A DNA stretch of 24,000 nucleotides from Liquorilactobacillus uvarum DSM 19971 (GTDB lineage Bacteria; Bacillota; Bacilli; Lactobacillales; Lactobacillaceae). The stretch's first letter is position 1, and each line of letters begins with the position of its first letter. A model generated the notes under the pieces. The model ran no database searches. It saw only the letters and a program-made list of their open reading frames with translations, and was not told where the DNA came from. A program made the translations under genes and the position numbers. The stretch lies in assembly GCF_001434935.1 (NCBI RefSeq), contig NZ_AZEG01000014.1, forward strand, positions 23,825 to 47,824, given 5' to 3'. This document shows, in pieces, positions 7,673 to 23,173 of the stretch.

Positions 7673-7723
7673 TATTTGTATATGTTGGAAAAGATAATTA
7701 TAATTTTTAAGGAGAATTAATAG

Positions 7724-8731: not shown

Positions 8732-9148
8732 ATGGTGAATTTGAACAAATTTTTAAATATTTGTGTTGGAACTTTAGGAACTTTGTATGTTCTTAATGAT
8801 ATATTCTTTAAAATAATGATCAAGCTCTATCGTCGACAAGGATACACATTCCAGACTGCAGATAAAATTGCCAGTAATGTGAACTTTTTTTCTATTGTAG
8901 TTGTAATGACAATTCTTTTAGTTTTAATCGGTATTTTATCAATAATTGGTAACATGATTTTATTTGCTCGCAGCAACTTTCTTTTGAGAGTCTCCATGAA
9001 TATTACCAATATATTGATGCCTTTTTTATATGTTAATAGAATTTGGTTTATTTTTTACGAGCTTCTTTCATGCGGGCTATTCCTTGTTTACCTATATACA
9101 CTGAGTGTTAGGCGCAGCAACAAGAATATCGAATTCGATCTTTTTTAA
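8732..9148 (+). CDS. Small polytopic membrane protein, unknown function
   Basis: 138 aa with about four hydrophobic segments (e.g. FFSIVVVMTILLVLIGILSIIGNMILF). The start is uncertain: ATG 8732, GTG 8735 or TTG 8741 all follow AAGGG at 8727-8731. Confidence 0.5.
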   Translation: MVNLNKFLNICVGTLGTLYVLNDIFFKIMIKLYRRQGYTFQTADKIASNVNFFSIVVVMTILLVLIGILSIIGNMILFARSNFLLRVSMNITNILMPFLYVNRIWFIFYELLSCGLFLVYLYTLSVRRSNKNIEFDLF

Positions 9149-9193
9149 TAACGGATATCTTATCCCAGAGAGAGTTTGATGAATTAAGGTTTA

Positions 9194-9231
9194 TTGATTA
9201 AATAGTATTACAATGTATAGTATCACAATGT
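9194..9231 (+). promoter_or_regulatory. Candidate sigma-A promoter of lepB overlapped by a tandem 14-mer
   Basis: TTGATT (9194-9199), a 16-nt spacer, then TATAGT (9216-9221). TAGTATTACAATGT (9203-9216) and TAGTATCACAATGT (9218-9231) form a direct repeat with one mismatch and a 15-nt period. Confidence 0.35.
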
Positions 9232-9278
9232 TATGTTAAGATTAAGATAAAATAAGTTTTAAGTTTGAAGGAGAAAAA

Positions 9279-9875
9279 ATGAAAGCTTTTAAAGAAATAA
9301 TGAGTTGGATTATTCCGGTACTTATTGGATTGGTGATTGCATTGCTTGTAAAACAATTTTTCTTTTCATTAGTAAGAGTTGATGGAACGTCAATGTATCC
9401 TAATCTTCAAAATAATGAACGTGTGATGATGTTGAAACAGGCTAAAATTAAGCGCAATACGGTGATTGTTTTTAATGCACACGGAGTCGATAAAAATTCA
9501 CCTTCAGTTACGGAAAGTACTAAATATGTTAAGCGTGTTATCGGATTGCCTGGTGACAAGATTGAGTACCGTAATGATGGTCGTGTTTTTGTAAACGGTC
9601 AAGAGCAGTCTCAGAGCTATATAACAGCTTCACAACGCCGAGAGGGTACTCTGATGCTCAGTTCCAGCTTATCTGAAGCTCCAGGTGTAACTTTGGGGAC
9701 TGGAAAAACTTTTACAGTCCCTGAAGGTAAGTACTTTGTACTTGGTGATAATCGTAAAAATTCTAATGACAGTAGATATTATGGTTTTGTTCCAAAGAGT
9801 AAAGTTGATGGTGTTGTCAAAGTAACATTTTGGAATGCCAAAAGTAATGTAATTAACTCGTATGGTAAAAAATAG
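9279..9875 (+). CDS. lepB: Signal peptidase I
   Basis: 198 aa with an N-terminal TM helix. Catalytic Ser box VDGTSMYPNL, Lys box YVKRVIGLPGD, and box E GDNRKNSNDSRYYGFV. RBS GAAGGAG lies upstream of the ATG. Confidence 0.88.
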   Translation: MKAFKEIMSWIIPVLIGLVIALLVKQFFFSLVRVDGTSMYPNLQNNERVMMLKQAKIKRNTVIVFNAHGVDKNSPSVTESTKYVKRVIGLPGDKIEYRNDGRVFVNGQEQSQSYITASQRREGTLMLSSSLSEAPGVTLGTGKTFTVPEGKYFVLGDNRKNSNDSRYYGFVPKSKVDGVVKVTFWNAKSNVINSYGKK

Positions 9876-10239
9876 TAAGACAAAAGAAATGTTAGGTTGA
9901 TTTGTATCGTCGTATAAATAAAATTTTATTTTTTAATGAGCACCAGTGACAGTTTTTCATTAAAATGGTTGAATTATCATAAATTGTGTCAATTGAGTTG
10001 AGATTATAAGATAAAATAAAGAGTAAGCACTTATTCTTTATTATCACTACTTTCGATAATATATATTATGTAAACTAGAAAAATAAGAGAATTTGTCAAG
10101 TCCGAATTTTAATCTAACCCCTCACTTATTTTTATGCATCGCTGAAAGTGCTGTTAAAACAGCGCTTTAACGCATAAAAAACAAAAAAATAAATTTGAAA
10201 AAGAAAAATAAATTCAAAAAAATTGCAAAAAATCAGTAG

Positions 10240-10312
10240 AAAAAATAATCGTCAAAATTTATAACCAGCAAAATAATTTGATTTGCTAGCCAAATTTTGA
10301 CGATTATTTTTT
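10240..10312. repeat. Perfect 21-bp inverted repeat (AT-rich cruciform/hairpin)
   Basis: 10240-10260 (aaaaaataatcgtcaaaattt) is the exact reverse complement of 10292-10312. The 31-nt spacer contains a smaller hairpin (agcaaa...tttgct). It lies ~115 nt beyond the IS30 transposase stop. Confidence 0.9.
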
Positions 10313-10425: not shown

Positions 10426-11577
10426 TTAACGTTTCTTAGTGTTTTTAGAACATCTTAAATGTCGTTTATAACCAAAGGTTCGATCAATTTCATGCATTTT
10501 TTGTCTGAATACATCTCTCGGTGCTTTATAGTTTAAAACAGCCTTTGGCCGTTTATTAATCTTATGTAATACGCGACGAATATCATCATTGTTAACATAT
10601 TCAAAATGTGTTTTCTTTGGAAAATATTCCCGCAACATCCGATTAGCATTCTCGTTCGAACCACGTTCAGCCGGACTGTACGGGTGTGCAAAATACGCCA
10701 TAAGTTCGTATTCACGTTGCACTTTATTAATCACAAAGTGATTGGCAAATTCAAATCCATTGTCAAATGTGAATGATTGAACAATATGTTTTGCACGTTT
10801 CCCCAATAAGTCCATAAATTGATCCAAGACCTTACATACCGCTTTTCCAGACTGAGATTCAGCTTTTAAAACAATATAATAACGTGTTTTACGTTCACAA
10901 AACGTCACAAAGACTTGCCGGTAACCTTTTTTTGGTAGAACACAATCAACTTCCCAGTGACCAAAAACTTTACGCTTATCAACACCTACTGGGCGTTCTT
11001 CAATTGAATGTTTAAGTGGGCGAACCAGCTGTTTTTCTTTTTGCTTCACCCTCTTTCTTTCAGTTTTTAATTCAGCCGCCCTCTTTTCTTTAGCGTTCAT
11101 TTCAACTGTTCTTTGCGGTCTCCCTCGACGATACTTATGACGATAACGTAAATTAGATTCAGAAACGCCTGGGATCATACCGCGGTAAATCCAGTTATAA
11201 ATTGTATTGCGACTCAATTTTAATTCTTTATGAGTTTCAGCAATCATTTGTGGTGACCATTTATCATCTAAAATCCTTTTAGCAATAATCCGTGCTTTTT
11301 TCTTTGAATACTTTTTTTTAGTACCAATCCGATCTTTTCTTAAGTCGGCATATTGTTGGGCTTCTTCGGCATTATAACGATAAGCATGCCATTTACGTGG
11401 TCTCAATTTATAATCCGAAAAGCGTTGACTCCGACGGAGTTCATTATTAATCGTCATAACTGTTCGGTGTAACCGCCGCGCAATTTCTGCCTGATTATGA
11501 ATTCCTTCGGTGTTCCATAGATAATCAATTTGACCACGCTCAAATGGCGTTAAGTGATAAGCTTGTTTTCTCTGCAT
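10426..11577 (-). CDS. IS30-family transposase (element ends not resolved)
   Basis: 383 aa. N-terminal HTH region (LTPFERGQIDYLW..., NTIYNWIYRG). DDE triad context typical of IS30: GHWEVDCV, FTFDNGFEFANH, ERGSNENANRMLREYFPKK. RBS GGAGGGAGGA lies directly upstream of the ATG at 11577. Confidence 0.9.
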   Translation of the reverse strand: MQRKQAYHLTPFERGQIDYLWNTEGIHNQAEIARRLHRTVMTINNELRRSQRFSDYKLRPRKWHAYRYNAEEAQQYADLRKDRIGTKKKYSKKKARIIAKRILDDKWSPQMIAETHKELKLSRNTIYNWIYRGMIPGVSESNLRYRHKYRRGRPQRTVEMNAKEKRAAELKTERKRVKQKEKQLVRPLKHSIEERPVGVDKRKVFGHWEVDCVLPKKGYRQVFVTFCERKTRYYIVLKAESQSGKAVCKVLDQFMDLLGKRAKHIVQSFTFDNGFEFANHFVINKVQREYELMAYFAHPYSPAERGSNENANRMLREYFPKKTHFEYVNNDDIRRVLHKINKRPKAVLNYKAPRDVFRQKMHEIDRTFGYKRHLRCSKNTKKR

Positions 11578-11839: not shown

Positions 11840-12427
11840 CTAACCGAAATCGATTTTATCCAGCATATGTTCCCTACTTACCTGATCTAATCCAAGGTAT
11901 TTTAAGGTCATAGCCTCACTACTATGATTAAGCAGCTGCATAACTAAACCAATATTATAATTTGTTTGTGTATAGACGCGATATGCGCCAGTTTTACGCA
12001 TAGTATGCGTACCTAAATAATTAATTCCTAGCAAGTCACCAACTCGTGCCATAATCTTATAAAACTGTTTTTCAGTAATATGACAACTAGGATTTTTAGT
12101 TGAAGGAAAAAGCCATTCAGACTGCAAATTATGTTTAATTAGCCATTGGTGATATTTTAATAAATCACTTTCAACTGGCTTTAAATATAAAGTATTAGAT
12201 TTGCCAGTCTTTTTATCTCGAATATAGGCATTATGCTTAATTGAACCATCAGGACTATAAATATCCTGGTACTTTAAGCGCATAATATCACTTACTCGTA
12301 AAAGCGTAGCTTTACCAACTTGAAAAATCATATAGTTACGCTGACCGGCTTTAAAATCTTCTAGCAAACATTCCTGAACTTGTTGCAAGACATTGGAATC
12401 TTTAATTGGCATAACAATCTGTTTCAT
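11840..12427 (-). CDS. Small tyrosine recombinase/integrase (catalytic domain only, 195 aa)
   Basis: The full catalytic set is readable: R44 (TLLRVSD), K73/K76 (DKKTGKS), H141-x-x-R144 (GTHTMRKTG), H168 (LLNHSS), Y177 (MTLKYLG). There is no N-terminal core-binding/SAM-like domain. Strong RBS (AAGGAG, 9 nt before the ATG). Confidence 0.85.
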   Translation of the reverse strand: MKQIVMPIKDSNVLQQVQECLLEDFKAGQRNYMIFQVGKATLLRVSDIMRLKYQDIYSPDGSIKHNAYIRDKKTGKSNTLYLKPVESDLLKYHQWLIKHNLQSEWLFPSTKNPSCHITEKQFYKIMARVGDLLGINYLGTHTMRKTGAYRVYTQTNYNIGLVMQLLNHSSEAMTLKYLGLDQVSREHMLDKIDFG

Positions 12428-12848: not shown

Positions 12849-13247
12849 TTAAATCTTTGTTAATATTATATCAGTTGAAGAAATCCAATGTACTTCAATT
12901 CTGTCTCCAACGGCTGCATTTATTTGGTTAAACCAAACTCCGAGTTTCTTTAAATCGCCCGATGTTTGTAAATTTTTAGCATAAACATCATTTGCTTTTG
13001 TACTGCCAGCTACTTTAACTGTAACTTTCAATAATCCATCATCTGATGTAGCATTGAATTCATTATAACCTATTCCTTCTTTTCCTTTATTAGAATTATA
13101 AATTTCAAATTGTACAGCTTTTTCACGAGGTATGCTTATATAGGCCTCTCCGTCAATTTTATCTCGTGAATCTGTGTGTCTATTTGTTCCCCAAGATAAA
13201 TTAGATTTTGTCAAAGATACTATAAAATAATCACCTTTTTTTGGCAT
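12849..13247 (-). CDS. Stand-alone B3-like (EcoRII-N / BfiI-C type pseudobarrel) DNA-binding domain protein, inferred
   Basis: 132 aa with its own strong RBS (AAGGGGAG, 8 nt before the ATG). The pattern FIVSLTKSNLSWGT...GEAYISIPREKAVQF...ATSDDGLLKVTVKVAG...AKNLQTSGDLKKLGVWFNQ...GDRIEVHWIS resembles REase B3-like domains. It shares the motif K-x-[LI]-[QE]-[ST]-x-G-x3-K-x-LG-x-W-[FI] with the C-terminus of the adjacent 551-aa protein. The gene call is solid; the fold assignment is an inference. Confidence 0.55.
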   Translation of the reverse strand: MPKKGDYFIVSLTKSNLSWGTNRHTDSRDKIDGEAYISIPREKAVQFEIYNSNKGKEGIGYNEFNATSDDGLLKVTVKVAGSTKANDVYAKNLQTSGDLKKLGVWFNQINAAVGDRIEVHWISSTDIILTKI

Positions 13248-13309
13248 TCAATATACTCCCCTTTTTTAATGATTAACTCTCAAATTAGAAATAACAATAG
13301 TTATTCTAA

Positions 13310-13405
13310 TTATTGATCCCAAAATGATTTTAATATATAAATTTTAATTTTCAAATTGTAACCATGCCAAAATTCACCGTCTACAAAAATTGCAAATTTA
13401 TTTAT
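13310..13405 (-). pseudogene. Fragment of a second, divergent vsr gene
   Basis: Translation NKINKFAIFVDGEFWHGYN...KSFWDQ* matches the core of the intact Vsr at 16339-16761 (ITKYHIAIFIDGEFWHGYK...RSYWIPK). Only ~30 codons remain. The N-terminal two thirds and the C-terminus are missing. The DNA is diverged from the intact copy, so this is not a recent duplication. Confidence 0.7.
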
Positions 13406-13406
13406 T

Positions 13407-15062
13407 TTATTTCCAAATGTCATCAGGTTCGTTTTCAGAATCAATCCAAATAAACTGAAGTTCAATATGATCGCTTTTTTTAATAAACCGAATACCATTT
13501 ATTCCTATTTCGTTTAGCTTGTTATATGTTAATGGCTCATACTCTTTTAATTGAAATACATCTCTTAAAATCCACTTTCCCAATATTTTTTGTGAGCCAA
13601 CAGATTCAATTGCTTTTCTGTTTTGTTGATTCACATATGCATTAATCACATCATTTGAAGGTAGAAACATAAGCTTAAACGTTCTTAATTCCTTATCTCT
13701 AACATATTTTTTCGATCCCGAAATAAAGATATTTTTTACAAAAAAATTAGGATACTGCTGATGAAATTGAGTCGATTTTGGAATTCTAATTTCTAATTCA
13801 TCGGCTGGTCGATATACCATACTTCCAACATCTTTTTTGATTTTTTGATTATTAATTTGAGTGATAAAATGCATTAATTCTAAACGAATAGTGACCATCC
13901 TATCTTTATCTTCTTTTGTTGTCCATTTCTTCAATAATAATACTTTCAAACGATCGATTATATAATCAAGATTCTTTTTTGAAATTATATCGGAATAATC
14001 ATTTTCAAACTTTTTTATGCGTTTTTCTCTATATTCATTTTCCCGACCCATTTTGCTTTGACCATAAAAAGCATTATAACCAGAGTATGGTTTAATTTCT
14101 ATATACCAGGAATGAGACTCAGAAATTTTAGTCTTAACCGGGACAGCTCTACGTTTAAGGTTATCTTCACTCATATTTTCAAAAAATTTAAAAGCATCTT
14201 TAACATAAGTTACAGGCCATTTTTCCAAAACCATATTTTTATTGTTAAATGACATTAATAATTGGCTGTCCGCCGAAGTATATTTATAGCAATGATTAAT
14301 ATCATGAAAAATGAAATTTGTCGGATTTCTTACACCCGTACACCCATCAATTGCTATACTTTCAAGGTCAATAGGCATGTAGGTAGTTTCACCAACTAAA
14401 ATCTCAGGCTTGTTATTCTTAGGAGTTGGCATTAAAACATGATATACTGCTTCAACGGAAATGTGATCTCGATTTTTAAACCCCTTTATATTTTCTTCTG
14501 ATGATCTAATTCGACTGTTTCGTACTGTAGCTATTTTTTTTGCAAGACTTAAATAAAGATCATGATTAATTTTATTTATATCTTTTTTTGTAGATAGCCC
14601 CTTTGAGTTTTCTTTGATTTTATCTATAATTTCGGTCCATTGATCCGCACTAATGGCTTTAAATTGTGCAATTTTTTGATCTCCAGAGTTAAGCCCAAAT
14701 GTCTTAATGCCAATTAGAAAACGTTTTTTAATTTTATCATCTATATGATCAATAGAAGCATCATAGGAAGTATTTCCTATATCTTCTCCAGTAGCATTAA
14801 ATGATTTTTGAAAAGCAGTTTCTTGAAATTTAGAATTAACAATAGGAGGTACTATGCTTTCTTCATCTTCGGTTTTTTGTGCAAAAGCTTCACTTAAACT
14901 AGCAAAATTTGTAATAAGCCTTTCATATAATTCCTTCTGATCATTTGGTAATTGTCCCCACAATAAAAACACCCCCGCATTAAGAATATTCTTATTATAT
15001 ACTAAAAGAGCAATTAACGTTTTATTATCGCTAATTGCTCCCCCAAATTCAAATTTTTTCAA
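13407..15062 (-). CDS. Putative type II restriction endonuclease: uncharacterised ~400-aa N-terminal region plus C-terminal B3-like DNA-binding domain
   Basis: 551 aa, last gene of the vsr-M-R operon. Its TTG start overlaps the MTase stop by 14 nt. C-terminal pattern: LEIRIPKSTQFHQQYPNFF...TFKLMFLPSN...RKAIESVGSQKILGKWILRDVF...INGIRFIKKSDHIELQFIWID (B3/BfiI-C-like). I could not read any PLD HxK, HNH, GIY-YIG or Walker A motif. Confidence 0.6.
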   Translation of the reverse strand: MKKFEFGGAISDNKTLIALLVYNKNILNAGVFLLWGQLPNDQKELYERLITNFASLSEAFAQKTEDEESIVPPIVNSKFQETAFQKSFNATGEDIGNTSYDASIDHIDDKIKKRFLIGIKTFGLNSGDQKIAQFKAISADQWTEIIDKIKENSKGLSTKKDINKINHDLYLSLAKKIATVRNSRIRSSEENIKGFKNRDHISVEAVYHVLMPTPKNNKPEILVGETTYMPIDLESIAIDGCTGVRNPTNFIFHDINHCYKYTSADSQLLMSFNNKNMVLEKWPVTYVKDAFKFFENMSEDNLKRRAVPVKTKISESHSWYIEIKPYSGYNAFYGQSKMGRENEYREKRIKKFENDYSDIISKKNLDYIIDRLKVLLLKKWTTKEDKDRMVTIRLELMHFITQINNQKIKKDVGSMVYRPADELEIRIPKSTQFHQQYPNFFVKNIFISGSKKYVRDKELRTFKLMFLPSNDVINAYVNQQNRKAIESVGSQKILGKWILRDVFQLKEYEPLTYNKLNEIGINGIRFIKKSDHIELQFIWIDSENEPDDIWK

Positions 15063-16260
15063 TCATATAGAAACTTGCACTTTTTTTCTTTTGAACGAGT
15101 TTTAAATATTCATCATCAGATAAAAGGTTCTTTTCTGATTCTAAAACAATTTTTTTTAAGTTATCAATAGAGTCAGAATATTCTTTTACATAACTTTCGC
15201 CTTCAAAGTGACTACCAATATTAGAATATATTAAAGCATACCTACCATGATGTCTATTATCGTCAATCTTTATTTGATCATTGATTGCTTTACAAATTTG
15301 TAAAGCAATTCGATGAATAACTGGAACAACAACCGAATTACCAGCTTGTTTATATAATTGTCCGTTAGCGATATCTGGTAATTTAAATGTTTCTGGATAT
15401 CCTTGAGCATTAAATGTTTCTTTAGGTGTTAACTTTCTAATTCTATCAGAATTAGTAAGAATTAGAGGAACATTGTGTCCACCAGTTCCCATATTTGCGG
15501 TTAATGTGGGTACCACTCCAGCTTTGTTTTCACGAACGTATTGTCGGCGCCATTGATAAATAGTATCGTGACTTGTCATATCGTTGACAAGATTATCATA
15601 GAAAGTCTGTTTGTCTCTTTTATAATAATATTTTTCATCTTTTGTGCCATCGAAATCTATGATGTCATGGATTGTTTTTGTTAATTTAATAGGATCGGGA
15701 AAATTGAATTTAACATAGTCAGTTGCATATTTAAATCCTACAATGTATATGCGTTCTCTATTTTGAGGAACATTCCCGTAATCTTTTCCATTAAGAACGT
15801 GCCACTTAATATAATATCCATTTTCTACTAAAGCTTCTCTAATAACCTTAAATGTATTTCCATGGTCATGTGTAACCAGATTTTTAACATTTTCGATAAA
15901 AACTACCCTGGGCTTTTTAGCTTTAATAATCCTTAGCATTTCAAAAAAAAGGTTTCCCCTCTCATCTTCAAAACCCTTTCGATAACCTGCAATTGAAAAT
16001 GCTTGACAAGGAAACCCGCCCATAATCACATCGCAGTTAGGTATCTCCTTAGTACTTACTTCATGAATATCTCGACCATCTAAAAGTGTATCAGGGTTGT
16101 TTTTTGCATACGTTTTCCGAGCATTTTTATCGAATTCGTTCGCATAGACAACTCTGAACTTGCCAGTCTGTTCAAAACCTAGCTCAATTCCACCAACACC
16201 AGCAAAAAAAGAAGCAATACTATATTTTTGTGTATTGATGGAACTCACAGAATTTGTCAT
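15049..16260 (-). CDS. DNA (cytosine-5)-methyltransferase
   Basis: 403 aa from the ATG at 16260 (RBS AGAGGAA). Canonical motifs: I FAGVGGIELGF, IV GGFPCQAFSIAG, VI FIENVKNL, VIII QNRERIYIVGF, IX RKLTPKETFNAQGYP, X YKQAGNSVVVPV. The ORF-track start at 16329 has no RBS. Confidence 0.95.
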   Translation of the reverse strand: MTNSVSSINTQKYSIASFFAGVGGIELGFEQTGKFRVVYANEFDKNARKTYAKNNPDTLLDGRDIHEVSTKEIPNCDVIMGGFPCQAFSIAGYRKGFEDERGNLFFEMLRIIKAKKPRVVFIENVKNLVTHDHGNTFKVIREALVENGYYIKWHVLNGKDYGNVPQNRERIYIVGFKYATDYVKFNFPDPIKLTKTIHDIIDFDGTKDEKYYYKRDKQTFYDNLVNDMTSHDTIYQWRRQYVRENKAGVVPTLTANMGTGGHNVPLILTNSDRIRKLTPKETFNAQGYPETFKLPDIANGQLYKQAGNSVVVPVIHRIALQICKAINDQIKIDDNRHHGRYALIYSNIGSHFEGESYVKEYSDSIDNLKKIVLESEKNLLSDDEYLKLVQKKKSASFYMIEKI

Positions 16261-16338
16261 GTTAGTTCCTCTTTTCTTTATAAGAATAATCCTAAGTATA
16301 GCATTTTGGTCAAAAAAAAGCTGCCCCAAATGTTAATA

Positions 16339-16761
16339 TTATTGTGAACTTCTCATATAAAAGAGAATTAACTCCGTACAATAATCCGGATTTTTTACAA
16401 CTTCTTTTGACCAAAATCTAACAACTCTCCATCCTAAAGATTGAAGCTTTGAGTTAACTAGTAAATCCCTTTTCATGTTTTTTTCAATCTTGGGAATCCA
16501 ATAACTTCTATGTGTATGTATATTATTTTGATTTTCGCTCCATTTATATCCATGCCAAAATTCGCCATCAATAAATATAGCAATATGATATTTTGTTATT
16601 GCTATATCAGGTTTTCCTGGTAGTTTTTTAAAATTTTTCCTATATCTAACACCATTGTTCCATAGTTTCTTTCTAAAAAGTAATTCTGGTTTGGTATCAA
16701 CAGATTTTATGTGGCTCATGTTTTTTGAACGTTGTTCAGCAGTAAGAATATGATTAATCAT
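16339..16761 (-). CDS. vsr: Very-short-patch repair endonuclease
   Basis: ~140 aa. Motifs: LTAEQRSKNMSHIKS, PGKPDIA, IAIFIDGEFWHG, LGWRVVRFWSKE (E. coli Vsr-like pattern). The start may be at 16761 (MINHIL, AAGGGA upstream) or 16779. Confidence 0.9.
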   Translation of the reverse strand: MINHILTAEQRSKNMSHIKSVDTKPELLFRKKLWNNGVRYRKNFKKLPGKPDIAITKYHIAIFIDGEFWHGYKWSENQNNIHTHRSYWIPKIEKNMKRDLLVNSKLQSLGWRVVRFWSKEVVKNPDYCTELILFYMRSSQ

Positions 16762-16794
16762 ATAATTTCCCTTCAACATTTTTATCTATTATTG

Positions 16795-17196: not shown

Positions 17197-18192
17197 TAAT
17201 TTAAAAACTGACCGAAATCAATCTTATCTAGCATATGTTCTCTACTTACTTTGCTCCTAATTCAATATTTGGCACATGTTTTTCTAGATACTTGTTCTGA
17301 TTCTTTCAGTGTTGAACCAATTAATATAATTTGATTGCGTATAAACACGATATGCGCCAGTTTTACACATAGTATGTATACCTAAATAATTAATTCATAA
17401 CAAGTCACCAACATGTGCCATAATTTTATAAAATTGCTTTTCGGTAATATGATGATTATATCTTTTAGTTGAAGGAAAAAGCAATTCAGGCTACAAATTA
17501 TGTTTGACTGAACCATCAAGACTATAAACGTCTTGAATAATATCACTAACTCTTAAAAACGTAGCTTTACCAATCTGAAAAATTGTATAGTTACGTTGAC
17601 CAGCTTTAAAATTTTCCAGCAAGCATTTTTGAACTTGTTTTAAGACAGTTGAATCTTTGATAGGTAAGATAATTTGTTTCATGGTTTCAACCTCTTAATT
17701 AAACACATTATTTTTAATTCTGTTTGAATAAAGAAAATGCCTTCATCAGTAAATGAAATTCCATCTTTTGAAATACAAGCAAGTATGTTCCCATTTTTAG
17801 ATTTTATATACACACATACTTCTAAAAAACGATAGTTTTCAACAGAATACTTCTGATTATACTTTTAATAATTTTTTTAAATTGCACAAAGTTTACCTCT
17901 TTCACAACAATAAATACGAAGAATCATTTCTGTCATTTGATTACATTCAACGTAAGTTTTAAAAAATATTTTTTCTTGTAATTCTGAGACTTCTGTGGTT
18001 AAATTGTTTTATGAATATCAAACAGTTGGCTAGTTAAAATTTCTAGTTATCAAATTAGGTGCAAATGAAAAAAAGCGCTCTTTTAGGGGCACTTTTCTTT
18101 ATATATTCATTTAATAACCCTTATATACAACCATTGATAAATGACGTTGATATAATAATACTTTATAGGGTCTATTAGAGATTTATGGTCCG
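17197..18192. repeat. Copy 2 (decayed) of the ~1 kb recombinase module
   Basis: See copy 1 (11830-12830). Relative to copy 1, copy 2 carries a ~105-bp deletion and smaller deletions inside int, a deletion inside the small ORF, and a ~130-bp insertion (about 17930-18060). Confidence 0.8.
17209..17682 (-). pseudogene. Tyrosine recombinase pseudogene (paralogue of 11840-12427)
   Basis: The N-terminal 50 codons are nearly identical (MKQIILPIKDSTVLKQVQKCLLENFKAGQRNYTIFQIGKATFLRVSDII). The frame then breaks. The remaining DNA still aligns with copy 1 to the stop region (ctgaccgaaatcaatcttatctagcatatg vs ctaaccgaaatcgattttatccagcatatg), with internal deletions and stops. Confidence 0.85.
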
Positions 18193-18240: not shown

Positions 18241-20925
18241 TTAATGTCTACTAAAATTATAACGCTCTTCTCGCTTTTTAAAAGCTTTTTCACCACCTTC
18301 AAGCACTTCACATATTGCGTTTTGCATGTTGCTGTCTTCAATGGATCCTTGTCTATAACAAAATTGATATCCTGGAATACCTTCTTTAGTCATTTCTTCA
18401 GCTAAAATCACGCATTCACTGTCACCACCAACTAACACGTTAGCATTATGAGTAACGATAAATAATTGTCTGTGTTGCTTTTGTTCGCGTAAGTATGAGA
18501 CAAGTTCCTCGTAAATTGCTTTATTGTCAAGTTCATCTTCTGGTTGATCAATTAGAAAAGGTCTATCATCTTTATCCAAGCTTAACTGGAGCATTAATAA
18601 AATAAAAGCTTGTTTTCCTTCAGACATTGTATGGAATTCTTGTCCTTTGTAAGTAATATTATATTTAGTTTGAATGAAATCCATGTTAGAAAATTGTTCA
18701 AACCATGAATAAAGATTCAAATTTGCCCTGTACGGATTGTCCTCGTTAATAGAATTTATTTCCAGCTTCAGACATTGCATCATCATTTTTTTAATGCTTT
18801 CAGCGTTAATAGAATTAGGATTATCAATATCAATAATACCAGCTTCAATTTCATTTTTGAAAGTACCCCGGCCTGTTTTGAAATTGCTTTGGACCAAGCT
18901 GATGAATTTATCTGTATTGATAGATGAAATAATTTGGAAATTTAGATTTTTGTCATCAACTTTATAAAGATCATGTGTGGTTAAAGAATCTCCAAAATCT
19001 ATTTCATTTACTAAATCATTGAAAAGAGCGAAACGACTTGAATTCAACTTCTTTAATTCATTATTAGCATCCTCAACGACTCTAAGAGAATGTTGCTGCT
19101 TTGTTAAACTTTCTTGAAATTTTTTGAGTTCTGGAGATTGTTCCTGCAAATTTGTATATTGTTCATAGATAGGAGCTTTTTTTGATTTTTGAATTAGGTT
19201 ATTTTTATCTTCAATGAACAGCTTTTTTTCTTGAATTCTATCATCAACATATTTAGCAAAATCTTGATTTAATTTATCAATTTTTGATTTGAAGATTTCA
19301 AAAACCTGTTTAGTTACATCACGCGTATATTGTTGAGATTGTGGATTCAATTGAATTTCAACGTTATCTAGAATAAGAGATAGTTCATCGATATCTTTTT
19401 GAGTGTCTTTGATCTGACTTTCAAAATCGTATATTTTTTGAATCATTGTGTCTATAGATTTTTGGTCAATATCTTCAATTTGTTCTTGCAATACTTGAAT
19501 ATTTTTTTTTAACTTATCAATATTACCTTCAAGAGTTCTAATAGGTTGTTGAGAACTAATCTTAGAAGTCTGTTCCTTTATTTTAATATTTAATTCTTTA
19601 AACTGATTAATTTTTAGAACAATTGAGTCATGTTTTTTACGCTGATATGTTTCAATTTTTTCTTTTATTTTACTTATATCTGTTATCCTATACAGAGTAC
19701 CCTCAATAAATTTATTTCTTTTATCATCGCTGCGAGCAATTTCTTGAAGACCATCTTGATAAATAAATTTAACTCCTTCTTCTCCACATGGAATGGTATC
19801 GTCTGCATATTTTAGTACACAATTTTCACTTAAATTATTGATTAAATTATCATAATTGGAATTATCACTTTTAAAATGTTGCACATTACTAGAAAGTTTA
19901 CTAATTATAGATAATAGCACAGATTTTCCACTTGAACGCCCACCTATAATTGTGTTTAAACCATCTGAAAATTCAAGTTTTTTAATTCCAAATTTTTCAC
20001 TTGGAAGTTCAAGAGTTTTAATGATTTTTGACTTTACTGGTGGTTCTGGTTTGTTAGCTTGGATTTTAATTCGTAAATCAGGTTCATAAGTGATTTGTTT
20101 CAAACCTTCAAAAGTTTTCATTGCTTTAATCCAAGTTCTTGAAGCTTCAGGGAAATCCTTAATTTTTTCTATACTGTGAGCATCGCATCCAGTTACAGAA
20201 GCGTAAATATTTTTATAATTATTTTCAGGGTTCAAAGCATATAGTTTATCATGGTATGCATTTTGGGTTCTGGCCTGTAAAAAATCTATATTTCCCCTTA
20301 CAAAATCTTTGCCGTTACTTGAACCATTACCATCTTTTAAGTTTATTCCATCACCACTATTGGGAATCATCATTAGAACCTTTTCTTTATAATTGTTTCC
20401 AAACGTATCTCTAAGTGATTTTTTTACGGAATCTGTAGTTGGTAAATAGCCAAAATTATTATCTTTAATAATTTCTTCTAAATCATCGGCAAAGTTAATA
20501 TTTTGACCATTGGATTTTGAAATACTTAATCCTCTTAAAAATTTTTCTATACATTCTTTCTGTTCATCTGGCCTGAAAATTAAGTGTATATTGACATAAC
20601 TTGTAGATTTATGACTATCTTCTCTTTTTTTGGAAACAAGATCGCTAACTCTTATTTCAACGTTTGGAAATAAAGTAATATTATCATTCAATCCCCAATT
20701 ACTTCTATTCCGTTTAAGTTTAAAAAAGTTCTTTGCTGAAAAATAATCTGTTATTCCTAGAACATCCGCCCCATAATTATTTAATTCTGCACAGTATTTT
20801 TTCCAAACAAGTTCTTTATCAGTTTGACTGCCATTTTGGTCTTTGAAGTTATCATTCATTTGAGTTTCTGGTGTGTGAATATGAAGATCCCATCTATACC
20901 ATTGTGACATAAGTTGTTTTTGCAA
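18241..20925 (-). CDS. PHP-domain phosphoesterase fused to an SMC/Rad50-like ABC ATPase (single-gene defence candidate, possibly Ppl-like)
   Basis: 894 aa with a TTG start at 20925, 7 nt after GGGGAGAG. PHP motifs: WDLHIHTPET, GITDYFS, NVEIRV, VTGCDAHS. Walker A IIGGRSSGKSVLL. A ~250-aa heptad-rich K/E/Q coiled-coil region. Signature-like MSEGKQAFILL, Walker B PFLIDQPEDELD, and H-loop FIVTHNANV. Confidence 0.7.
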   Translation of the reverse strand: MQKQLMSQWYRWDLHIHTPETQMNDNFKDQNGSQTDKELVWKKYCAELNNYGADVLGITDYFSAKNFFKLKRNRSNWGLNDNITLFPNVEIRVSDLVSKKREDSHKSTSYVNIHLIFRPDEQKECIEKFLRGLSISKSNGQNINFADDLEEIIKDNNFGYLPTTDSVKKSLRDTFGNNYKEKVLMMIPNSGDGINLKDGNGSSNGKDFVRGNIDFLQARTQNAYHDKLYALNPENNYKNIYASVTGCDAHSIEKIKDFPEASRTWIKAMKTFEGLKQITYEPDLRIKIQANKPEPPVKSKIIKTLELPSEKFGIKKLEFSDGLNTIIGGRSSGKSVLLSIISKLSSNVQHFKSDNSNYDNLINNLSENCVLKYADDTIPCGEEGVKFIYQDGLQEIARSDDKRNKFIEGTLYRITDISKIKEKIETYQRKKHDSIVLKINQFKELNIKIKEQTSKISSQQPIRTLEGNIDKLKKNIQVLQEQIEDIDQKSIDTMIQKIYDFESQIKDTQKDIDELSLILDNVEIQLNPQSQQYTRDVTKQVFEIFKSKIDKLNQDFAKYVDDRIQEKKLFIEDKNNLIQKSKKAPIYEQYTNLQEQSPELKKFQESLTKQQHSLRVVEDANNELKKLNSSRFALFNDLVNEIDFGDSLTTHDLYKVDDKNLNFQIISSINTDKFISLVQSNFKTGRGTFKNEIEAGIIDIDNPNSINAESIKKMMMQCLKLEINSINEDNPYRANLNLYSWFEQFSNMDFIQTKYNITYKGQEFHTMSEGKQAFILLMLQLSLDKDDRPFLIDQPEDELDNKAIYEELVSYLREQKQHRQLFIVTHNANVLVGGDSECVILAEEMTKEGIPGYQFCYRQGSIEDSNMQNAICEVLEGGEKAFKKREERYNFSRH

Positions 20926-21053
20926 TACTAATCTCTCCCCAAAAATTAAATTTTAAAAACAAAAGACCTATGCTTATTTTGAAACAAAATAAAAAAAAAG
21001 CAATACTTATTGTTAATAATTTTTGATGTGATTTTGTCTATCATAGAACTTAG

Positions 21054-21416
21054 TTAATTTGAGTAAATAAATTTCAACTTTAATATGCTTGACGGTGCTA
21101 TCTTTAAATATTTAGTTACTTTTGTTATTTTATAATATATAAACCAAACATTAGCTTGATTACCATTTGGATATCTGAAACTAATGCTAATTAGATGTTC
21201 ATTTTCTGCTGGATCATCATAAATAACAATTTTAGTATTTTTCTTTGTCAAATTTTTTTGACCAGGAACGGCAATTTTATTTTCATAATTAAGTACCTGA
21301 TTAATTTCATAGTCATATTTGGTTTCGTGTTTATAGTATGCAAATCCTAAAATTCCTAAAAGCGCGATTGTCAATAGCACTATTATTTTTATTTTTTTAT
21401 TCTGCAATAGTTTCAT
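21054..21416 (-). CDS. Small membrane-anchored protein, unknown function
   Basis: 120 aa from the ATG at 21416 (RBS AGGAGGA, 5 nt upstream). It has an N-terminal TM segment (IIVLLTIALLGILGFAYY). The longer ORF-track form (to 21578) overlaps the upstream gene and has no RBS. Confidence 0.55.
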   Translation of the reverse strand: MKLLQNKKIKIIVLLTIALLGILGFAYYKHETKYDYEINQVLNYENKIAVPGQKNLTKKNTKIVIYDDPAENEHLISISFRYPNGNQANVWFIYYKITKVTKYLKIAPSSILKLKFIYSN

Positions 21417-21426
21417 TTTTGTCCTC

Positions 21427-22011
21427 CTAAAATGTTGATATTTCAGTAATTTTTTCTTGTTTTGTGTTATAAGTAAACTGGTATTTAATGTTATTTGTTG
21501 TTTGATTGCCAGAACTAGTTGTTTTGACTGTTCCGATAAAGATTCCTTTAATTTCGTTATCTTCTGACTTTTTTTCAAAATAAATATTAGATTCCATCAG
21601 CTGAGATGTTGCATTTAACTGTTTTAATTGTTTGGTGGCTATTGATTGATTATTAGCTGATTGACTGCCACCAAGGTACGTTAGAACATCATCAGTAGCA
21701 TATTTAGTGCCGATTTGTTGCTTTTCTAACCAGTTATCTGCATTCCAATTATTTAAGCTATTGAACAATTTTGTTGCTATATGTTCTGCTTTTTTATCAA
21801 CACTAATTTTAGTGATAGTTGTTGAAGTAGAACTGTTTTCAAAAGAAATTTGCTGAGCTGTTAGTTTCTTATTTTTAGCTTTTAATTTCGCTATCTGAGC
21901 TGTTTGTGTTGCGTTTATGCTATTTTGTTCTTGATTAGTTGCATTAAGCTTATAAAAAGCACTTAGTGCTAGAATTCCGATTATAATTAAGATTATTTTA
22001 TTTCTATTCAC
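21427..22011 (-). CDS. Membrane-anchored conjugative-element protein (possibly TcpC/NTF2-like), function unproven
   Basis: ~194 aa from the GTG at 22011 (GAGGTG, 6 nt upstream, immediately after the hydrolase stop). It has an N-terminal TM segment (IILIIIGILALSAF). Its position after a CwlT-like hydrolase mirrors ICE/Tn916-type operons. The start is uncertain. Confidence 0.45.
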   Translation of the reverse strand: MNRNKIILIIIGILALSAFYKLNATNQEQNSINATQTAQIAKLKAKNKKLTAQQISFENSSTSTTITKISVDKKAEHIATKLFNSLNNWNADNWLEKQQIGTKYATDDVLTYLGGSQSANNQSIATKQLKQLNATSQLMESNIYFEKKSEDNEIKGIFIGTVKTTSSGNQTTNNIKYQFTYNTKQEKITEISTF

Positions 22012-22021
22012 CCTATTCACC

Positions 22022-23173
22022 TCATTTATACTTATCTGGCAATAAATTTGCTTTAATTCGACCATATGAAACCTTGCTCCAGTTACCATATGCTGGATTA
22101 TTTGCTTGCCAAACGTTTGTTTTTTTAATGCCAGAATTTTCTTCGTCAATCATCTGACCATTTCCGATATAGATTCCAACATGGCTATACCCTGAACCGG
22201 CATCGTCATTAACCGAACTGTAAAAGAAAACCAGGTCCCCTGCCCTGGCATCTTCTTTTTTTACTTCTTCAATATCTTGTGACCATTGAGTTTGTGAAGT
22301 CCGAGTTAATGTAATTCCGATTTTATTAAATGCCCAGTAAGTAAAGCCTGAACAGTCAGTTGCGCCATGTACTGCTTTAGCGGTTGCTGAATTATCAAGG
22401 CTCGAAGGATTACCACCCAGCAAATAGTTATCAGGCGTTTTGTCAGCCCACTTATTAGCCCAAGCCGACAAATCAGTCCACCATTTATCAGTTGGACCAG
22501 AAACACTAAGTGTTTTACCAGCATTTTTATCACAAGTTTGATCTGTTTCAGTAATTTCAACAGTATTTGAATTAGAATTATCTCCGGTTGAGTCTTTAAA
22601 CTTGTTGTACCAATACTCTGCATTGCTTGCCCTAACGATGTTGTTGGCTTCATTTTTACCGGCTCGTTCAAAGCGTAACTCCCATTGAACCGCGGCAATA
22701 GACGGATTAGTTGAATTTTTAGCGTAATCTCCTAAGTTAGACTTTTCAGTTCCATTAGCTTCCTCGTAGAGGAACATAACTTGAGCTTGGATACTATCAG
22801 GATCTTTACTATGCTCGGTTGCAAAGCTTTTTTCGTTGGACAATCTCTCACCTAACCACTGAGCAATCCCGTGTGCACCAGAACTTGAATTAGTCGAAGT
22901 TGGATTGATATTAGATTCCTGCTGTAAGTTGCCTAAAACACCAGCTACCGCAGCTTTAGACCAGCCCTGATTAATTAGATAGTTCCAGATAATTTGAGCA
23001 TTTTTTTCAGTATTCTTAGATACTTGATTGCCTGAAATTCCTAAGTTGTTGGCACAATCTAAATTCGTAACATTACTTTTTTCATTGCCACCAAAAATCA
23101 TAAAAACAATAACAATTAGAATAACCAGCAAAAAAATCGGGATCGTTAAGATCCCGACTAACTTTAATTTCAT
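22022..23173 (-). CDS. Bifunctional cell-wall hydrolase of conjugative elements (lysozyme-like domain plus NlpC/P60), CwlT-like
   Basis: 383 aa with an N-terminal TM segment. Lysozyme-like motif AAVAGVLGNLQQESNINP...GIAQW. NlpC/P60 catalytic Cys in GATDCSGFTYWAF and His in YSHVGIYIGNGQMI. RBS GAGGTGA. Confidence 0.8.
   Translation of the reverse strand: MKLKLVGILTIPIFLLVILIVIVFMIFGGNEKSNVTNLDCANNLGISGNQVSKNTEKNAQIIWNYLINQGWSKAAVAGVLGNLQQESNINPTSTNSSSGAHGIAQWLGERLSNEKSFATEHSKDPDSIQAQVMFLYEEANGTEKSNLGDYAKNSTNPSIAAVQWELRFERAGKNEANNIVRASNAEYWYNKFKDSTGDNSNSNTVEITETDQTCDKNAGKTLSVSGPTDKWWTDLSAWANKWADKTPDNYLLGGNPSSLDNSATAKAVHGATDCSGFTYWAFNKIGITLTRTSQTQWSQDIEEVKKEDARAGDLVFFYSSVNDDAGSGYSHVGIYIGNGQMIDEENSGIKKTNVWQANNPAYGNWSKVSYGRIKANLLPDKYK

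What the first reader, a model, noticed from the sequence alone, without database searches (positions are those of the whole stretch)
18241..20925. 894-aa PHP phosphoesterase :: SMC/Rad50-like ABC ATPase fusion as a single-gene defence candidate
The N-terminal ~270 aa carry PHP metal-binding motifs (HIH, DAH). The rest is an ABC/SMC-type ATPase head split by a long coiled coil, with Walker A GGRSSGKS, signature-like SEGKQ, Walker B LIDQPEDELD and H-loop THNAN.

It sits alone between a conjugation operon tail and the decayed recombinase module, in an AT-rich island next to an RM system. That is typical defence-island context. As far as I recall, a single-gene system called Ppl (PHP-like phosphoesterase plus ATPase) was reported in the 2020 large-scale defence screen by Gao et al. 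I cannot verify membership from sequence alone. The architecture also resembles a Lamassu/SbcCD-like sensor (SMC head plus coiled coil) fused in cis to its nuclease effector, and I know of no mechanistic characterisation of such a fusion.
Basis: partly seen in the sequence, partly recalled or inferred. Interest (0 to 1): 0.65.

Follow-up and report, generated by a model that had tools for sequence, protein, structure and literature searches.

The report
Ppl-like PHP nuclease–ATPase defence gene
This is an intact, stand-alone gene on an integrated conjugative element that fuses a PHP-type metal nuclease domain to an SMC/Rad50-like ATPase. It belongs to a large, already catalogued family that also contains the tested anti-phage protein Ppl, so it is a credible but ordinary defence-gene candidate.

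Summary

Structure prediction and fold search show an N-terminal PHP domain. This is followed by an ABC ATPase head split by a coiled coil of about 225 residues, most similar to SMC, JetC, RecN, Rad50 and LmuB.

NCBIfam assigns the protein to the "TrlF family AAA-like ATPase" (494 bits, cut-off 350). It is not Ppl in the strict sense: it scores 105 bits against a cut-off of 1000, and 90 bits on PADLOC's Ppl model where true Ppl scores 1779. It is nevertheless collinear with E. coli Ppl over the full length (hhalign probability 99.9%), and Ppl itself passes the TrlF model.

The gene has no conserved partner. The TrlG partner of the Photorhabdus TRL operon is absent here and in 51 of 53 related loci. 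Relatives sit beside restriction-modification systems, Abi genes, helicases and insertion sequences. They occur on 1144 plasmids, 828 of them conjugative, and in a P2-like phage.

A mechanism for Ppl was published in 2026 (an ssDNA 3'-5' exonuclease gated by NTPs), so the architecture is no longer uncharacterised. The one distinctive feature is a PHP-site variant found across most of the family sampled: Tyr replaces the motif-II His, and an Arg is nearly always present two residues after the Glu.

Verdict: a new member of a known kind, of low to moderate interest.

The parts
18241..20925 (-). Complete 894-aa ORF (stop codon included): PHP nuclease-like domain fused to an SMC-like ABC ATPase, NCBIfam TrlF family.
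   Evidence: ORF list. NCBIfam NF045780: 494.3 bits against a cut-off of 350, aligned over residues 7-890. AF2 model: pLDDT 86.8.
20926..20940 (-). Ribosome-binding site GGGGAGAG (20933-20940) and 7-nt spacer before the TTG start codon.
   Evidence: Sequence read directly. The spacing fits the TTG start, not the ATG 15 nt downstream.
20041..20907 (-). PHP domain, aa 7-295. Conserved residues: D13, H15, H17; T59-D60-Y61; E90-x-R92; N112-x-H114; N189/D192; D248-A-H250.
   Evidence: The N-terminal AF2 model has pLDDT 89.4 and pTM 0.89. The top 22 Foldseek hits are all PHP domains: RNase AM 9etk (E 4e-7), BAD_1165, Cv1693 (2yb1), and the PHP domains of Pol III alpha and PolC. The listed residues are invariant or nearly so.
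19678..20040 (-). ABC ATPase head, N-terminal lobe, aa 296-416. Contains Walker A G328-GRSSGKS-335 and the Q-loop Q390.
   Evidence: Residues are invariant in A1. Foldseek matches SMC, JetC, RecN, Rad50, RecF, LmuB and AriA heads. The profile matches Smc5, AriA and Rad50 sequences in the PDB.
19003..19677 (-). Antiparallel coiled-coil insertion, aa 417-641. No CxxC zinc hook at the apex.
   Evidence: Long helices 417-457, 462-481, 488-520, 536-582, 585-596 and 598-641 in the model. No CxxC occurs anywhere in the sequence.
18376..19002 (-). ABC ATPase head, C-terminal lobe, aa 642-850. Contains the signature motif S768-E-G-K-Q, Walker B D793-QPED-797, the D-loop L799-D800 and the H-loop H826.
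   Evidence: Residues are invariant. This is the region most similar to Ppl: 36% identity over 738-888, E 2e-21.
18244..18375 (-). Conserved C-terminal tail, aa 851-894. Conserved residues: Y857, E863, C872, L875-E-G-G878, A881-F882, R885, Y889. Shared with Ppl and the Spaf_1101 family.
   Evidence: Invariant columns. The tail aligns with the Ppl C-terminus...MEGGEKAFRSRYER.

Best explanation
The gene encodes an intact, stand-alone member of the PHP-nuclease / SMC-like ABC-ATPase family. NCBI names this family 'TrlF family', and the experimentally validated anti-phage protein Ppl falls within it. The gene is carried as cargo in the accessory region of an integrative conjugative element in a lactic-acid bacterium, next to a type II restriction-modification cassette.

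Most likely it is a single-protein immunity factor against invading DNA, whether phage or a rival mobile element.

Shown here:
- A PHP fold that keeps its metal-ligand set.
- A full catalytic ABC motif set (Walker A and B, Q-loop, signature, D-loop, H-loop). An ABC head with these motifs works by ATP-sandwich dimerisation (established knowledge of ABC ATPases).
- A coiled coil of about 225 residues.
- No conserved partner gene.

Inferred by homology with Ppl, and with Rad50/SbcC:
- A homodimer binds DNA ends or ssDNA 3' tails through the head and coiled coil.
- Nucleotide occupancy of the ATPase head, and possibly of the PHP site, keeps the nuclease off at normal NTP levels.
- When infection lowers NTP levels and produces free DNA ends, the PHP domain degrades the DNA exonucleolytically and replication of the invader stops.
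For: Family and architecture:
- NCBIfam TrlF: 494 bits over the full length.
- AF2 models with pLDDT 86.8 and 89.4.
- PHP fold hits and SMC/JetC/RecN/Rad50/LmuB/AriA head hits.
- Catalytic residues invariant in 30 and in 85 homologues.

Homology to a proven defence protein:
- BLASTP against E. coli Ppl gives two collinear HSPs, E 1e-7 (N-terminus) and E 2e-21 (C-terminus).
- hhalign gives probability 99.9%, E 2.6e-32, over 596 columns.
- Ppl itself scores 475.5 bits on the TrlF model.
- The two proteins are 894 and 895 aa long.

Ppl function and mechanism from the literature:
- Ppl restricts T7 and is countered by Bas63 gp130 (PMC11482910).
- Ppl is an NTP-inhibited ssDNA 3'-5' exonuclease that senses 3'-OH ends (review PMC12904381). 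The primary paper, Xu et al. 2026, is cited in PMC13434339.

Solo gene in variable defence or mobile-element contexts:
- Close homologues (53-55% identity) lie inside a Tn916-like ICE, beside IS66, or beside a TIR + TPR-S pair.
- Among 148 flanking ORFs from 40 loci no partner recurs, but many are R-M, GmrSD, Abi, PD-(D/E)XK, helicase or integrase genes.
- The family matches 1144 PLSDB plasmids, 828 of them conjugative.
- On plasmid pEh1A it sits next to an Abi protein and near an ATP-binding protein + UvrD-helicase pair.
- On a Lactococcus plasmid it sits next to a type III R-M system.
- A P2-like Yersinia phage carries a family member between gpA and gpQ. From my own knowledge this is the tin/old accessory slot.

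In the window itself, the neighbours are a type II R-M system and integrase remnants.
Against: - No phenotype exists for this protein or, as far as the held literature shows, for any member of its clade. No paper contains the phrase 'TrlF family'.
- It is only a remote relative of Ppl: 23-36% identity in the conserved parts, 90 bits on PADLOC's Ppl model against 1779 for true Ppl.
- Its PHP site differs from that of Ppl. Tyr61 replaces the canonical motif-II His, and Arg92 is invariant among its relatives (30 of 30; 68 of 85 family members). Substrate, polarity and regulation could therefore differ.
- The closest PHP structures are RNase AM and Cv1693, which act on RNA, oligonucleotides and nucleotides.
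- The only published phenotype attached to the name TrlF is temperature restriction in Photorhabdus. That phenotype mapped to TrlG, not TrlF (PMC7554251).
- The Ppl mechanism is known to me only second-hand, because the primary paper is not held.
Confidence: 0.62

Rival explanations
1. The architecture is the same, but the role is competition between mobile elements rather than phage defence. The protein would destroy incoming plasmid or ICE DNA (for example the ssDNA 3' end that enters during conjugation), or exclude related elements, to the benefit of the ICE or plasmid that carries it.
For: The gene sits on an ICE here and inside a Tn916-like ICE in L001. Of 1144 plasmid matches, 828 are on conjugative plasmids. 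The structural neighbours JetC (Wadjet) and LmuB (Lamassu) belong to systems that act on plasmids or DNA ends (review).
Against: Ppl, the only tested relative, is reported as anti-phage. A family member sits in an accessory slot of a P2-like phage. This reading does not exclude phage defence, since many systems do both.
Confidence: 0.2
2. The PHP domain acts on RNA or nucleotides rather than DNA. It would be an RNase AM-like 5'-3' exoribonuclease or a nucleotide phosphodiesterase, and the ATPase head would gate RNA decay or depletion of a signalling or nucleotide pool.
For: The best fold matches are RNase AM (9etk, 7ug9) and the AMP-bound Cv1693 (2yb1). The PHP site departs from the canonical pattern, with Tyr61 and Arg92. 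From general chemistry, Arg and Tyr are typical phosphate-binding residues.
Against: The PHP domains of Pol III alpha and PolC match about equally well. The fused SMC/Rad50-type head with a coiled coil is a DNA-handling module in every structural neighbour. Ppl is reported to be a DNA exonuclease.
Confidence: 0.12
3. It is a DNA-repair ATPase-nuclease of the SbcC/RecN/Rad50 type, serving the host or the ICE in double-strand-break processing.
For: Foldseek matches RecN, Rad50, RecF and MukB heads. Some database records label relatives 'DNA repair ATPase' or 'chromosome partition protein'.
Against: - No NCBIfam or Pfam hit to SbcC or RecN. SMC_N scores 29.7 bits, below its cut-off of 40.
- No zinc hook or hinge, and no SbcD/Mre11 partner.
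- Patchy distribution on plasmids, ICEs and islands, with non-conserved neighbours.
- AT-rich foreign DNA.
Confidence: 0.04
4. It is the TrlF component of a TRL-type (temperature restriction locus) module, acting with a TrlG-like Schlafen/AlbA_2-HATPase partner and a small TrlR regulator.
For: It passes the NCBIfam TrlF model. The TRL operon trlR-trlF-trlG is described in Photorhabdus (PMC7554251).
Against: No AlbA_2/HATPase_c_4 gene was found among the ORFs scanned in the window. Only 2 of 53 full-length related loci have a TrlG-like gene downstream. Those TrlG-linked proteins cluster with Ppl in the 'DH' clade, far from the window protein.
Confidence: 0.02

Closest known systems
Ppl (E. coli single-gene anti-phage system, Gao et al. 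2020; NCBIfam NF042955; PADLOC PDLC02208; example WP_059331541.1 on IncF plasmid p147)
   Same: - The domain order is identical and the length almost identical (895 versus 894 aa): N-terminal PHP domain, ABC head N-lobe, coiled coil, ABC head C-lobe, and the conserved 'EGGxxAF..R..Y' tail.
- The two proteins are collinear.
- Both are solo genes on conjugative elements inside small defence islets. Ppl lies next to a P-loop NTPase gene and pifC.
- Both pass the NCBIfam TrlF model.
   Different: - Identity is only 23% (N-terminus) to 36% (C-terminus) in the alignable parts.
- The window protein fails the Ppl equivalog cut-off: 105 bits against 1000.
- The PHP motifs differ. Ppl has the canonical D-H in motif II and E-x-T. 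The window protein has D-Y and E-x-R.
- In a rough NJ tree the two fall in different deep clades.
- The hosts are in different phyla (Bacillota versus Enterobacterales).
TrlF of the Photorhabdus laumondii temperature restriction locus (trlR-trlF-trlG; PMC7554251)
   Same: The same NCBIfam family and the same PHP + ABC ATPase architecture. The Photorhabdus protein was annotated 'histidinol phosphatase' there.
   Different: The Photorhabdus-type genes are followed by trlG (SLFN_AlbA_2 + HATPase_c_4), as in L043 and L086. They have the 'H' form of PHP motif II and cluster with Ppl. The window gene has no such partner.
SMC-like sensor ATPases of Lamassu (LmuB), Wadjet (JetC) and PARIS (AriA), and Rad50/SbcC
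   Same: An ABC head split by a coiled coil, with Foldseek E values of 1e-6 to 4e-4. Weak HMM hits to AriA and AAA_21. In the review's model, SMC-like complexes sense DNA ends or DNA structures and license a nuclease.
   Different: In those systems the nuclease or effector (LmuA, JetD, AriB, SbcD/Mre11) is a separate protein of a different fold. Here a PHP nuclease domain is fused in cis. The coiled coil is short (about 110 residues per arm), has no zinc hook or hinge, and has no kleisin or KITE partners.
Stand-alone PHP exonucleases and phosphoesterases (RNase AM/YciV, Cv1693, Pol III alpha/PolC PHP domains)
   Same: The fold and most of the metal-ligand pattern: HxH, E, H, DxH.
   Different: Those enzymes are not fused to an ATPase. 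The window protein has Tyr at the motif-II His position and an extra Arg conserved among its relatives. Sequence similarity is too low for Pfam PF02811 to detect the domain.

Membership tests
TrlF family AAA-like ATPase (NCBIfam NF045780) | Full-length match above the curated cut-off of 350 bits | tested here: met
   494.3 bits, E 1.1e-147, residues 7-890 against profile positions 3-944 of 944.
TrlF family AAA-like ATPase (NCBIfam NF045780) | TRL operon organisation as first described (trlR-trlF-trlG) | tested here: not met
   No SLFN_AlbA_2/HATPase_c_4 gene was found among the ORFs scanned in the window. A TrlG-like neighbour occurs in only 2 of 53 related loci. This feature therefore does not define the HMM family as NCBI applies it.
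Ppl (Gao 2020 single-gene defence) | N-terminal PHP domain with a metal-binding site | tested here: met
   Fold search. D13/H15/H17, E90, H114 and D248/H250 are conserved. Motif-II His is replaced by Tyr61.
Ppl (Gao 2020 single-gene defence) | ATPase (ABC/SMC-type) domain with intact Walker A and B, in the same polypeptide | tested here: met
   Motifs are present and invariant. Head fold confirmed.
Ppl (Gao 2020 single-gene defence) | Stand-alone gene with no obligatory partner | tested here: met
   Neighbours vary in the window and in the loci examined.
Ppl (Gao 2020 single-gene defence) | Score at or above the NCBIfam Ppl_antiphage equivalog cut-off (1000 bits) | tested here: not met
   105.5 bits. 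Genuine Ppl scores 1326.7 bits.
Ppl (Gao 2020 single-gene defence) | Detection by the PADLOC Ppl HMM (PDLC02208) | tested here: inconclusive
   E 3.2e-26 and 89.7 bits in two partial stretches, against 1778.6 bits over the full length for true Ppl. PADLOC's own coverage rules and DefenseFinder's thresholds could not be applied here.
Ppl (Gao 2020 single-gene defence) | Anti-phage phenotype; NTP-inhibited ssDNA 3'-5' exonuclease activity | not testable with these tools
   Known only for E. coli Ppl, from the literature.
Spaf_1101 family AAA-like ATPase (NCBIfam NF045781) | Score at or above 475 bits | tested here: not met
   139.9 bits, C-terminal part only.
Housekeeping SMC/SbcC/RecN/Rad50 | Family HMM match, hinge or zinc hook, partner nuclease or kleisin, conserved chromosomal context | tested here: not met
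   Pfam SMC_N scores 29.7 bits, below its cut-off of 40. NCBIfam gives no SbcC or RecN hit. There is no CxxC. The context is mobile and variable.
Lamassu (LmuB + LmuA) / PARIS (AriA + AriB) | SMC-like or AAA_21 ATPase encoded with a separate effector (LmuA; AriB Toprim) | tested here: not met
   No LmuB hit for the window protein. The AriA hit is weak (E 6.8e-8, partial). No effector-like neighbour was found.

The most novel reading that the evidence does not exclude
Most of the family members sampled (70 of 85), including the window protein, carry a remodelled PHP active site. Tyr replaces the motif-II metal-binding His, and in 68 of them an Arg sits two residues after the catalytic Glu. Ppl, the TrlG-linked TrlF proteins and the P2-phage copy keep the canonical His.

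If this change removes the third metal site, or creates a phosphate or end-recognition pocket, the clade could have a different substrate, polarity or trigger from Ppl. One possibility is recognition of 5'-phosphorylated or conjugatively transferred ssDNA ends. On ICEs and conjugative plasmids it could then act mainly against rival conjugative elements. That would make it a functionally distinct, untested and very widespread single-gene immunity system that is currently hidden under a misleading 'TrlF' label.
Probability: 0.2. Interest if true: 0.55.

Novelty: new member of a known kind. Interest (0 to 1): 0.3.

Why it matters
If it is active, this would be a single-protein nuclease-ATPase immunity gene carried by a conjugative element in lactic-acid bacteria, where phage resistance and gene flow matter in practice.

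It also shows that the experimentally studied Ppl is a small branch of a much larger family. That family has more than 1000 clusters at 50% identity with E<=1e-30, and matches 1144 plasmids in PLSDB. Its main branch carries an altered PHP active site, and I found no published experimental test of any member in the literature searched.

The window copy itself adds little beyond one more member.

Tried and rejected
- Pfam on the full protein and on residues 1-300 gave no PHP hit, even at E<=1. The PHP assignment rests on fold search, on motifs, and on a transitive link through family member L087, which hits PF02811 (E 7e-4) and CehA/McbA.
- Sequence searches of the PDB, with the single sequence, the full-length profile and the N-terminal profile, found no Ppl-like or PHP entry. 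They found only Smc5, AriA, Rad50 and noise. No solved Ppl structure was available for comparison.
- The primary Ppl paper (Xu et al. 2026) is not held, and the PhageMaP supplement is not held. The Ppl mechanism is therefore cited second-hand.
- The search for a TrlG partner or any other conserved partner was negative.
- I rejected a housekeeping SbcC/RecN reading and a TRL-operon reading (see rivals).
- The window has no tRNA genes, so no tRNA attachment site was identified.
- The promoter and terminator scans were at background level, so the transcription unit is not defined.
- A first MAFFT run timed out and was repeated with faster settings.
- The NJ tree is rough: BLOSUM distances, no support values. 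I used it only for the coarse DH/DY split, which the motif table shows independently.
Their placement is inferred from the alignment and from beta-strand periodicity.
Full report
**Observation**

The window has an uninterrupted ORF at 18241-20925 on the minus strand, encoding 894 aa from a TTG start. A GGGGAGAG ribosome-binding site ends 7 nt upstream of that TTG. This favours the 894-aa start over the ATG five codons downstream, which the public gene call uses to give 889 aa.

- HIH at 15-17
- DAH at 248-250
- GGRSSGKS at 328-335
- SEGKQ at 768-772
- LIDQPEDELD at 791-800
- THNAN at 825-829

In an alignment of 30 homologues that share 25-55% identity with it, these residues are invariant or nearly so. 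So are D13, T59-D60-Y61, E90-x-R92, N112-x-H114, D192, Q390, and a C-terminal tail (Y857, E863, C872, LEGG 875-878, AF 881-882, R885, Y889). The same holds in an 85-member table.

**Anatomy**

Pfam sees only weak ABC signals: SMC_N at 29.7 bits (below its cut-off) and AAA_21 at 28.7 bits (just above). It finds no PHP domain even at E<=1.

Structure prediction resolves the question.
- The full-length AlphaFold2 model, built on the 30-sequence alignment, is confident (pLDDT 86.8, pTM 0.68).
- It shows an alpha/beta N-terminal domain (about 7-295), an ABC head N-lobe (about 296-416), long paired helices (417-641), the head C-lobe (642-850) and a short helical tail.
- Foldseek against the PDB returns SMC, cohesin, JetC, RecN, MukB, Rad50, RecF, LmuB and AriA heads (E 5e-8 to 1e-3). 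It also returns the PHP enzyme RNase AM over 300 columns.
- A separate model of residues 1-300 (pLDDT 89.4, pTM 0.89) gives only PHP domains as its 22 best hits: RNase AM, BAD_1165, Cv1693, and the PHP domains of Pol III alpha and PolC (E 4e-7 to 3e-3).

There is no CxxC anywhere, so there is no zinc hook.

**Family**

NCBIfam places the protein in NF045780, "TrlF family AAA-like ATPase": 494.3 bits against a cut-off of 350, over the full length. Hits to Ppl_antiphage (105.5 bits, cut-off 1000) and Spaf_1101 (139.9 bits, cut-off 475) fall far below their cut-offs. In PADLOC the best hit is Ppl (E 3e-26, 89.7 bits, two partial stretches), followed by weak hits to mad3, AriA and PDC-M49A.

The name TrlF comes from the Photorhabdus laumondii temperature restriction locus, trlR-trlF-trlG (PMC7554251). 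There, the mutations that restored growth at 36 C all fell in trlG, which encodes an AlbA_2 + HATPase_c_4 protein. None fell in trlF.

**Relation to Ppl**

I recovered a genuine Ppl (WP_059331541.1) from E. coli IncF plasmid p147, where it lies next to a P-loop NTPase gene and pifC.
- It scores 1326.7 bits on NCBIfam Ppl and 1778.6 bits on PADLOC Ppl.
- It also scores 475.5 bits over its full length on the TrlF model. The TrlF model therefore covers Ppl as well.
- BLASTP of the window protein against Ppl gives two collinear segments: 7-341 against 5-305 (23% identity, E 1e-7), and 738-888 against 752-892 (36% identity, E 2e-21).
- hhalign of the family profile against Ppl gives probability 99.9%, E 2.6e-32, over 596 columns.
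- The two proteins are 894 and 895 aa long.

They are homologous over their whole length and share one architecture. But the window protein is a remote relative, not a Ppl equivalog.

**A split inside the family**

The motif table shows two forms of the PHP site.
- Ppl, the two TrlG-linked proteins (L043 from Enterobacter, L086 from Hydrogenophilales) and L087, among 15 of the 85 tabulated members, keep His at PHP motif II; Ppl and L087 have the canonical D-H. The P2-like phage protein, which was not in the table, reads ITDH in its translation.
- The window protein and most other members have D-Y at that position, and nearly all of those also have Arg two residues after the catalytic Glu (E-x-R).

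A rough NJ tree puts Ppl, the TrlG-linked TrlF proteins and L087 together at the base. It puts the window protein in a subclade with the homologues found for the window protein (P0002-P0023; the two with a source name are Macrococcus), inside the large DY/ExR group. By analogy with YcdX-type trinuclear PHP sites (my own knowledge), the motif-II His is a ligand of the third metal. The variant could therefore change metal content or substrate binding.

**Context**

In the window, the first ~7.6 kb holds core-type genes: a gyrB/parE-type gene followed by a gyrA/parC-type gene, an NFACT-family gene, a MarR-like gene and DegV. Further ORFs (an AP_endonuc_2-domain gene, a 138-aa ORF of unknown function and a signal peptidase) follow up to about 9.9 kb. 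Next comes the following series, all on the minus strand:
- an IS30-like transposase
- a 195-aa tyrosine recombinase of the type found on plasmids of lactic-acid bacteria
- a type II R-M cassette (NgoFVII-like REase plus a fragment, a Dcm-type methyltransferase, and Vsr)
- a decayed second copy of the small integrase (about 17315-17716)
- the PHP-ATPase gene
- conjugation-type genes, including a lysozyme/NlpC-P60 hydrolase

GC content is 27-31% across roughly 8.5-21.5 kb, against 35-41% in the core.

The closest homologues (53-55% identity, from metagenomes) are solo genes in unrelated settings:
- inside a Tn916-like ICE, between the Rep_trans relaxase and the FtsK coupling protein
- next to IS66
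- next to a TIR protein and a TPR-S protein

Across one representative genome per species, at least 574 loci encode relatives, and all ten I tested are TrlF-family by NCBIfam. Only 2 of 53 full-length loci have a TrlG-like gene downstream. A pooled Pfam scan of 148 flanking ORFs from 40 loci shows no recurrent partner. It does show many type I, II and III R-M components, GmrSD, Abi_2, PD-(D/E)XK, Schlafen-helicase, DUF2130 and integrase genes.

Distribution on mobile elements:
- tblastn finds the family on 1144 of 72,556 PLSDB plasmids, 828 of them conjugative.
- On Enterobacter plasmid pEh1A it sits beside an Abi protein and near an ATP-binding + UvrD-helicase pair.
- On a Lactococcus plasmid it sits beside a type III R-M system.
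- Phage records rarely carry it: 7 records, all with C-terminal matches only. In the one I opened, a P2-like Yersinia phage, the gene is a full-length 872-aa DH-type member lying between gpA and gpQ. From my own knowledge that is the tin/old accessory slot of P2-like phages.

A phmmer scan of 1.84 billion cluster representatives finds 1048 clusters at E<=1e-30. The family is large, mobile and associated with defence islands.

**Mechanism**

Shown here:
- the fold
- an intact, conserved PHP ligand set, with the Tyr/Arg variation
- a complete ABC catalytic motif set; such heads work by ATP-sandwich dimerisation (established knowledge of ABC ATPases)
- the coiled coil
- the absence of any conserved partner

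From the literature:
- Ppl restricts T7 and is countered by Bas63 gp130 (PMC11482910).
[quoted passage not shown] NTPs bound at both the PHP and the NTPase domains inhibit it. It is activated when phage infection depletes nucleotides and 3'-OH ends appear (review PMC12904381). The primary paper, Xu et al., Mol Cell 2026, is cited in PMC13434339 and is not held.

Inferred for the window protein: a homodimer uses its head and coiled coil to engage DNA ends or ssDNA tails, and nucleotide state gates a PHP exonuclease that destroys invading DNA. I put about 0.6 on this overall reading, and less on the Ppl-specific details because of the altered PHP site.

Rivals:
- a primary role in competition between plasmids or ICEs (0.2)
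- an RNA or nucleotide substrate, as in the nearest PHP structures (0.12)
- DNA repair (0.04)
- a TRL-type two-gene module (0.02)

**Comparison and novelty**

Its tentative Ppl assignment becomes "remote Ppl homologue, NCBIfam TrlF family". Its statement that such fusions lack mechanistic study is now out of date.

The window gene is one more member of a family that NCBI already models and annotates on thousands of genomes and plasmids, so I file it as a new member of a known kind.

Two points remain mildly interesting. First, no paper in the held library mentions the TrlF family as such. Second, its dominant DY/ExR branch, to which this gene belongs, appears untested and has an active site unlike that of Ppl.

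Interest: 0.3.

Noticed in passing
window 11840-12427 (-) and about 17315-17716 (-), flanking 12849-16779: The type II R-M cassette (NgoFVII-like REase, Dcm-type methyltransferase, Vsr) is bracketed by two copies of the small (~195 aa) site-specific integrase typical of plasmids of lactic-acid bacteria. One copy is intact. The other has decayed into pieces with 71-77% nucleotide identity to the plasmid genes. This looks like a plasmid-derived module captured in the island.
   Followed up: partly
window 12849-13247 (-) and 13407-15062 (-): Two ORFs both carry the NgoFVII C-terminal B3-like DNA-binding domain: a 551-aa REase-like protein and a 132-aa fragment just downstream. This may be a duplicated or truncated restriction enzyme gene. 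I did not assess whether the REase is intact.
   Followed up: no
window 10426-11577 (-): An IS30-like transposase (rve + HTH_38) lies about 550 bp from the signal peptidase gene (9279-9875), within the AT-rich stretch that starts near 8500. No tRNA gene is present in the window, so the attachment site of the element was not identified.
   Followed up: no
L090 (E. coli IncF plasmid p147, NZ_CP023384.1) 3748-10276: Genuine ppl lies about 500 bp from a 'P-loop NTPase fold protein' gene and pifC, close to the IncFII replication genes. This is a small defence islet on an F-like plasmid.
   Followed up: no
NCBIfam models NF045780 (TrlF) and NF042955 (Ppl): Genuine Ppl scores 475.5 bits over its full length on the TrlF 'equivalog' model (cut-off 350). 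The TrlF model therefore spans functionally and phylogenetically distinct branches: Ppl, the TrlG-linked TrlF proteins, and the large DY/ExR clade. The product name 'TrlF family' says little about function.
   Followed up: partly
L091 (Yersinia phage vB_YenM_42.18, OM046624.1) 2781-5399: A P2-like temperate phage carries an 872-aa member of the family with the canonical 'DH' PHP site, annotated 'chromosome partition protein Smc'. It lies between replication gene gpA and portal gene gpQ. Six other small 'phage' records (14-110 kb; hosts Listeria, Microcystis, Vibrio and Streptococcus suis) also matched through the C-terminal region, and I did not open them.
   Followed up: partly
L088 (Enterobacter hormaechei plasmid pEh1A, NZ_KR822246.1) and many Klebsiella/E. 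coli plasmids: One TrlF-family allele (WP_001568022.1) gives identical match statistics on dozens of conjugative Enterobacterales plasmids of 38-368 kb. On pEh1A it sits beside an Abi-family gene and IS elements, and near an ATP-binding + UvrD-helicase gene pair.
   Followed up: partly
window 21054-21578, 21427-22149 and 22022-23173 (all -): Three successive minus-strand ORFs upstream of the PHP-ATPase gene overlap each other by about 130-150 nt in the mechanical ORF list. The two smaller ones have no family hit. Their true starts are probably further downstream, and they were not resolved.
   Followed up: no
window 8732-9148 (+): A 138-aa ORF at the edge of the AT-rich region has no Pfam or PADLOC match.
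   Followed up: no
PADLOC models PDC-M49A (PDLC04678-04680): The phage-defence-candidate family PDC-M49A matches both the PHP N-terminus (in L043) and the C-terminal ATPase lobe (in several members). It is probably another, shorter branch of the same PHP-ABC superfamily.
   Followed up: no
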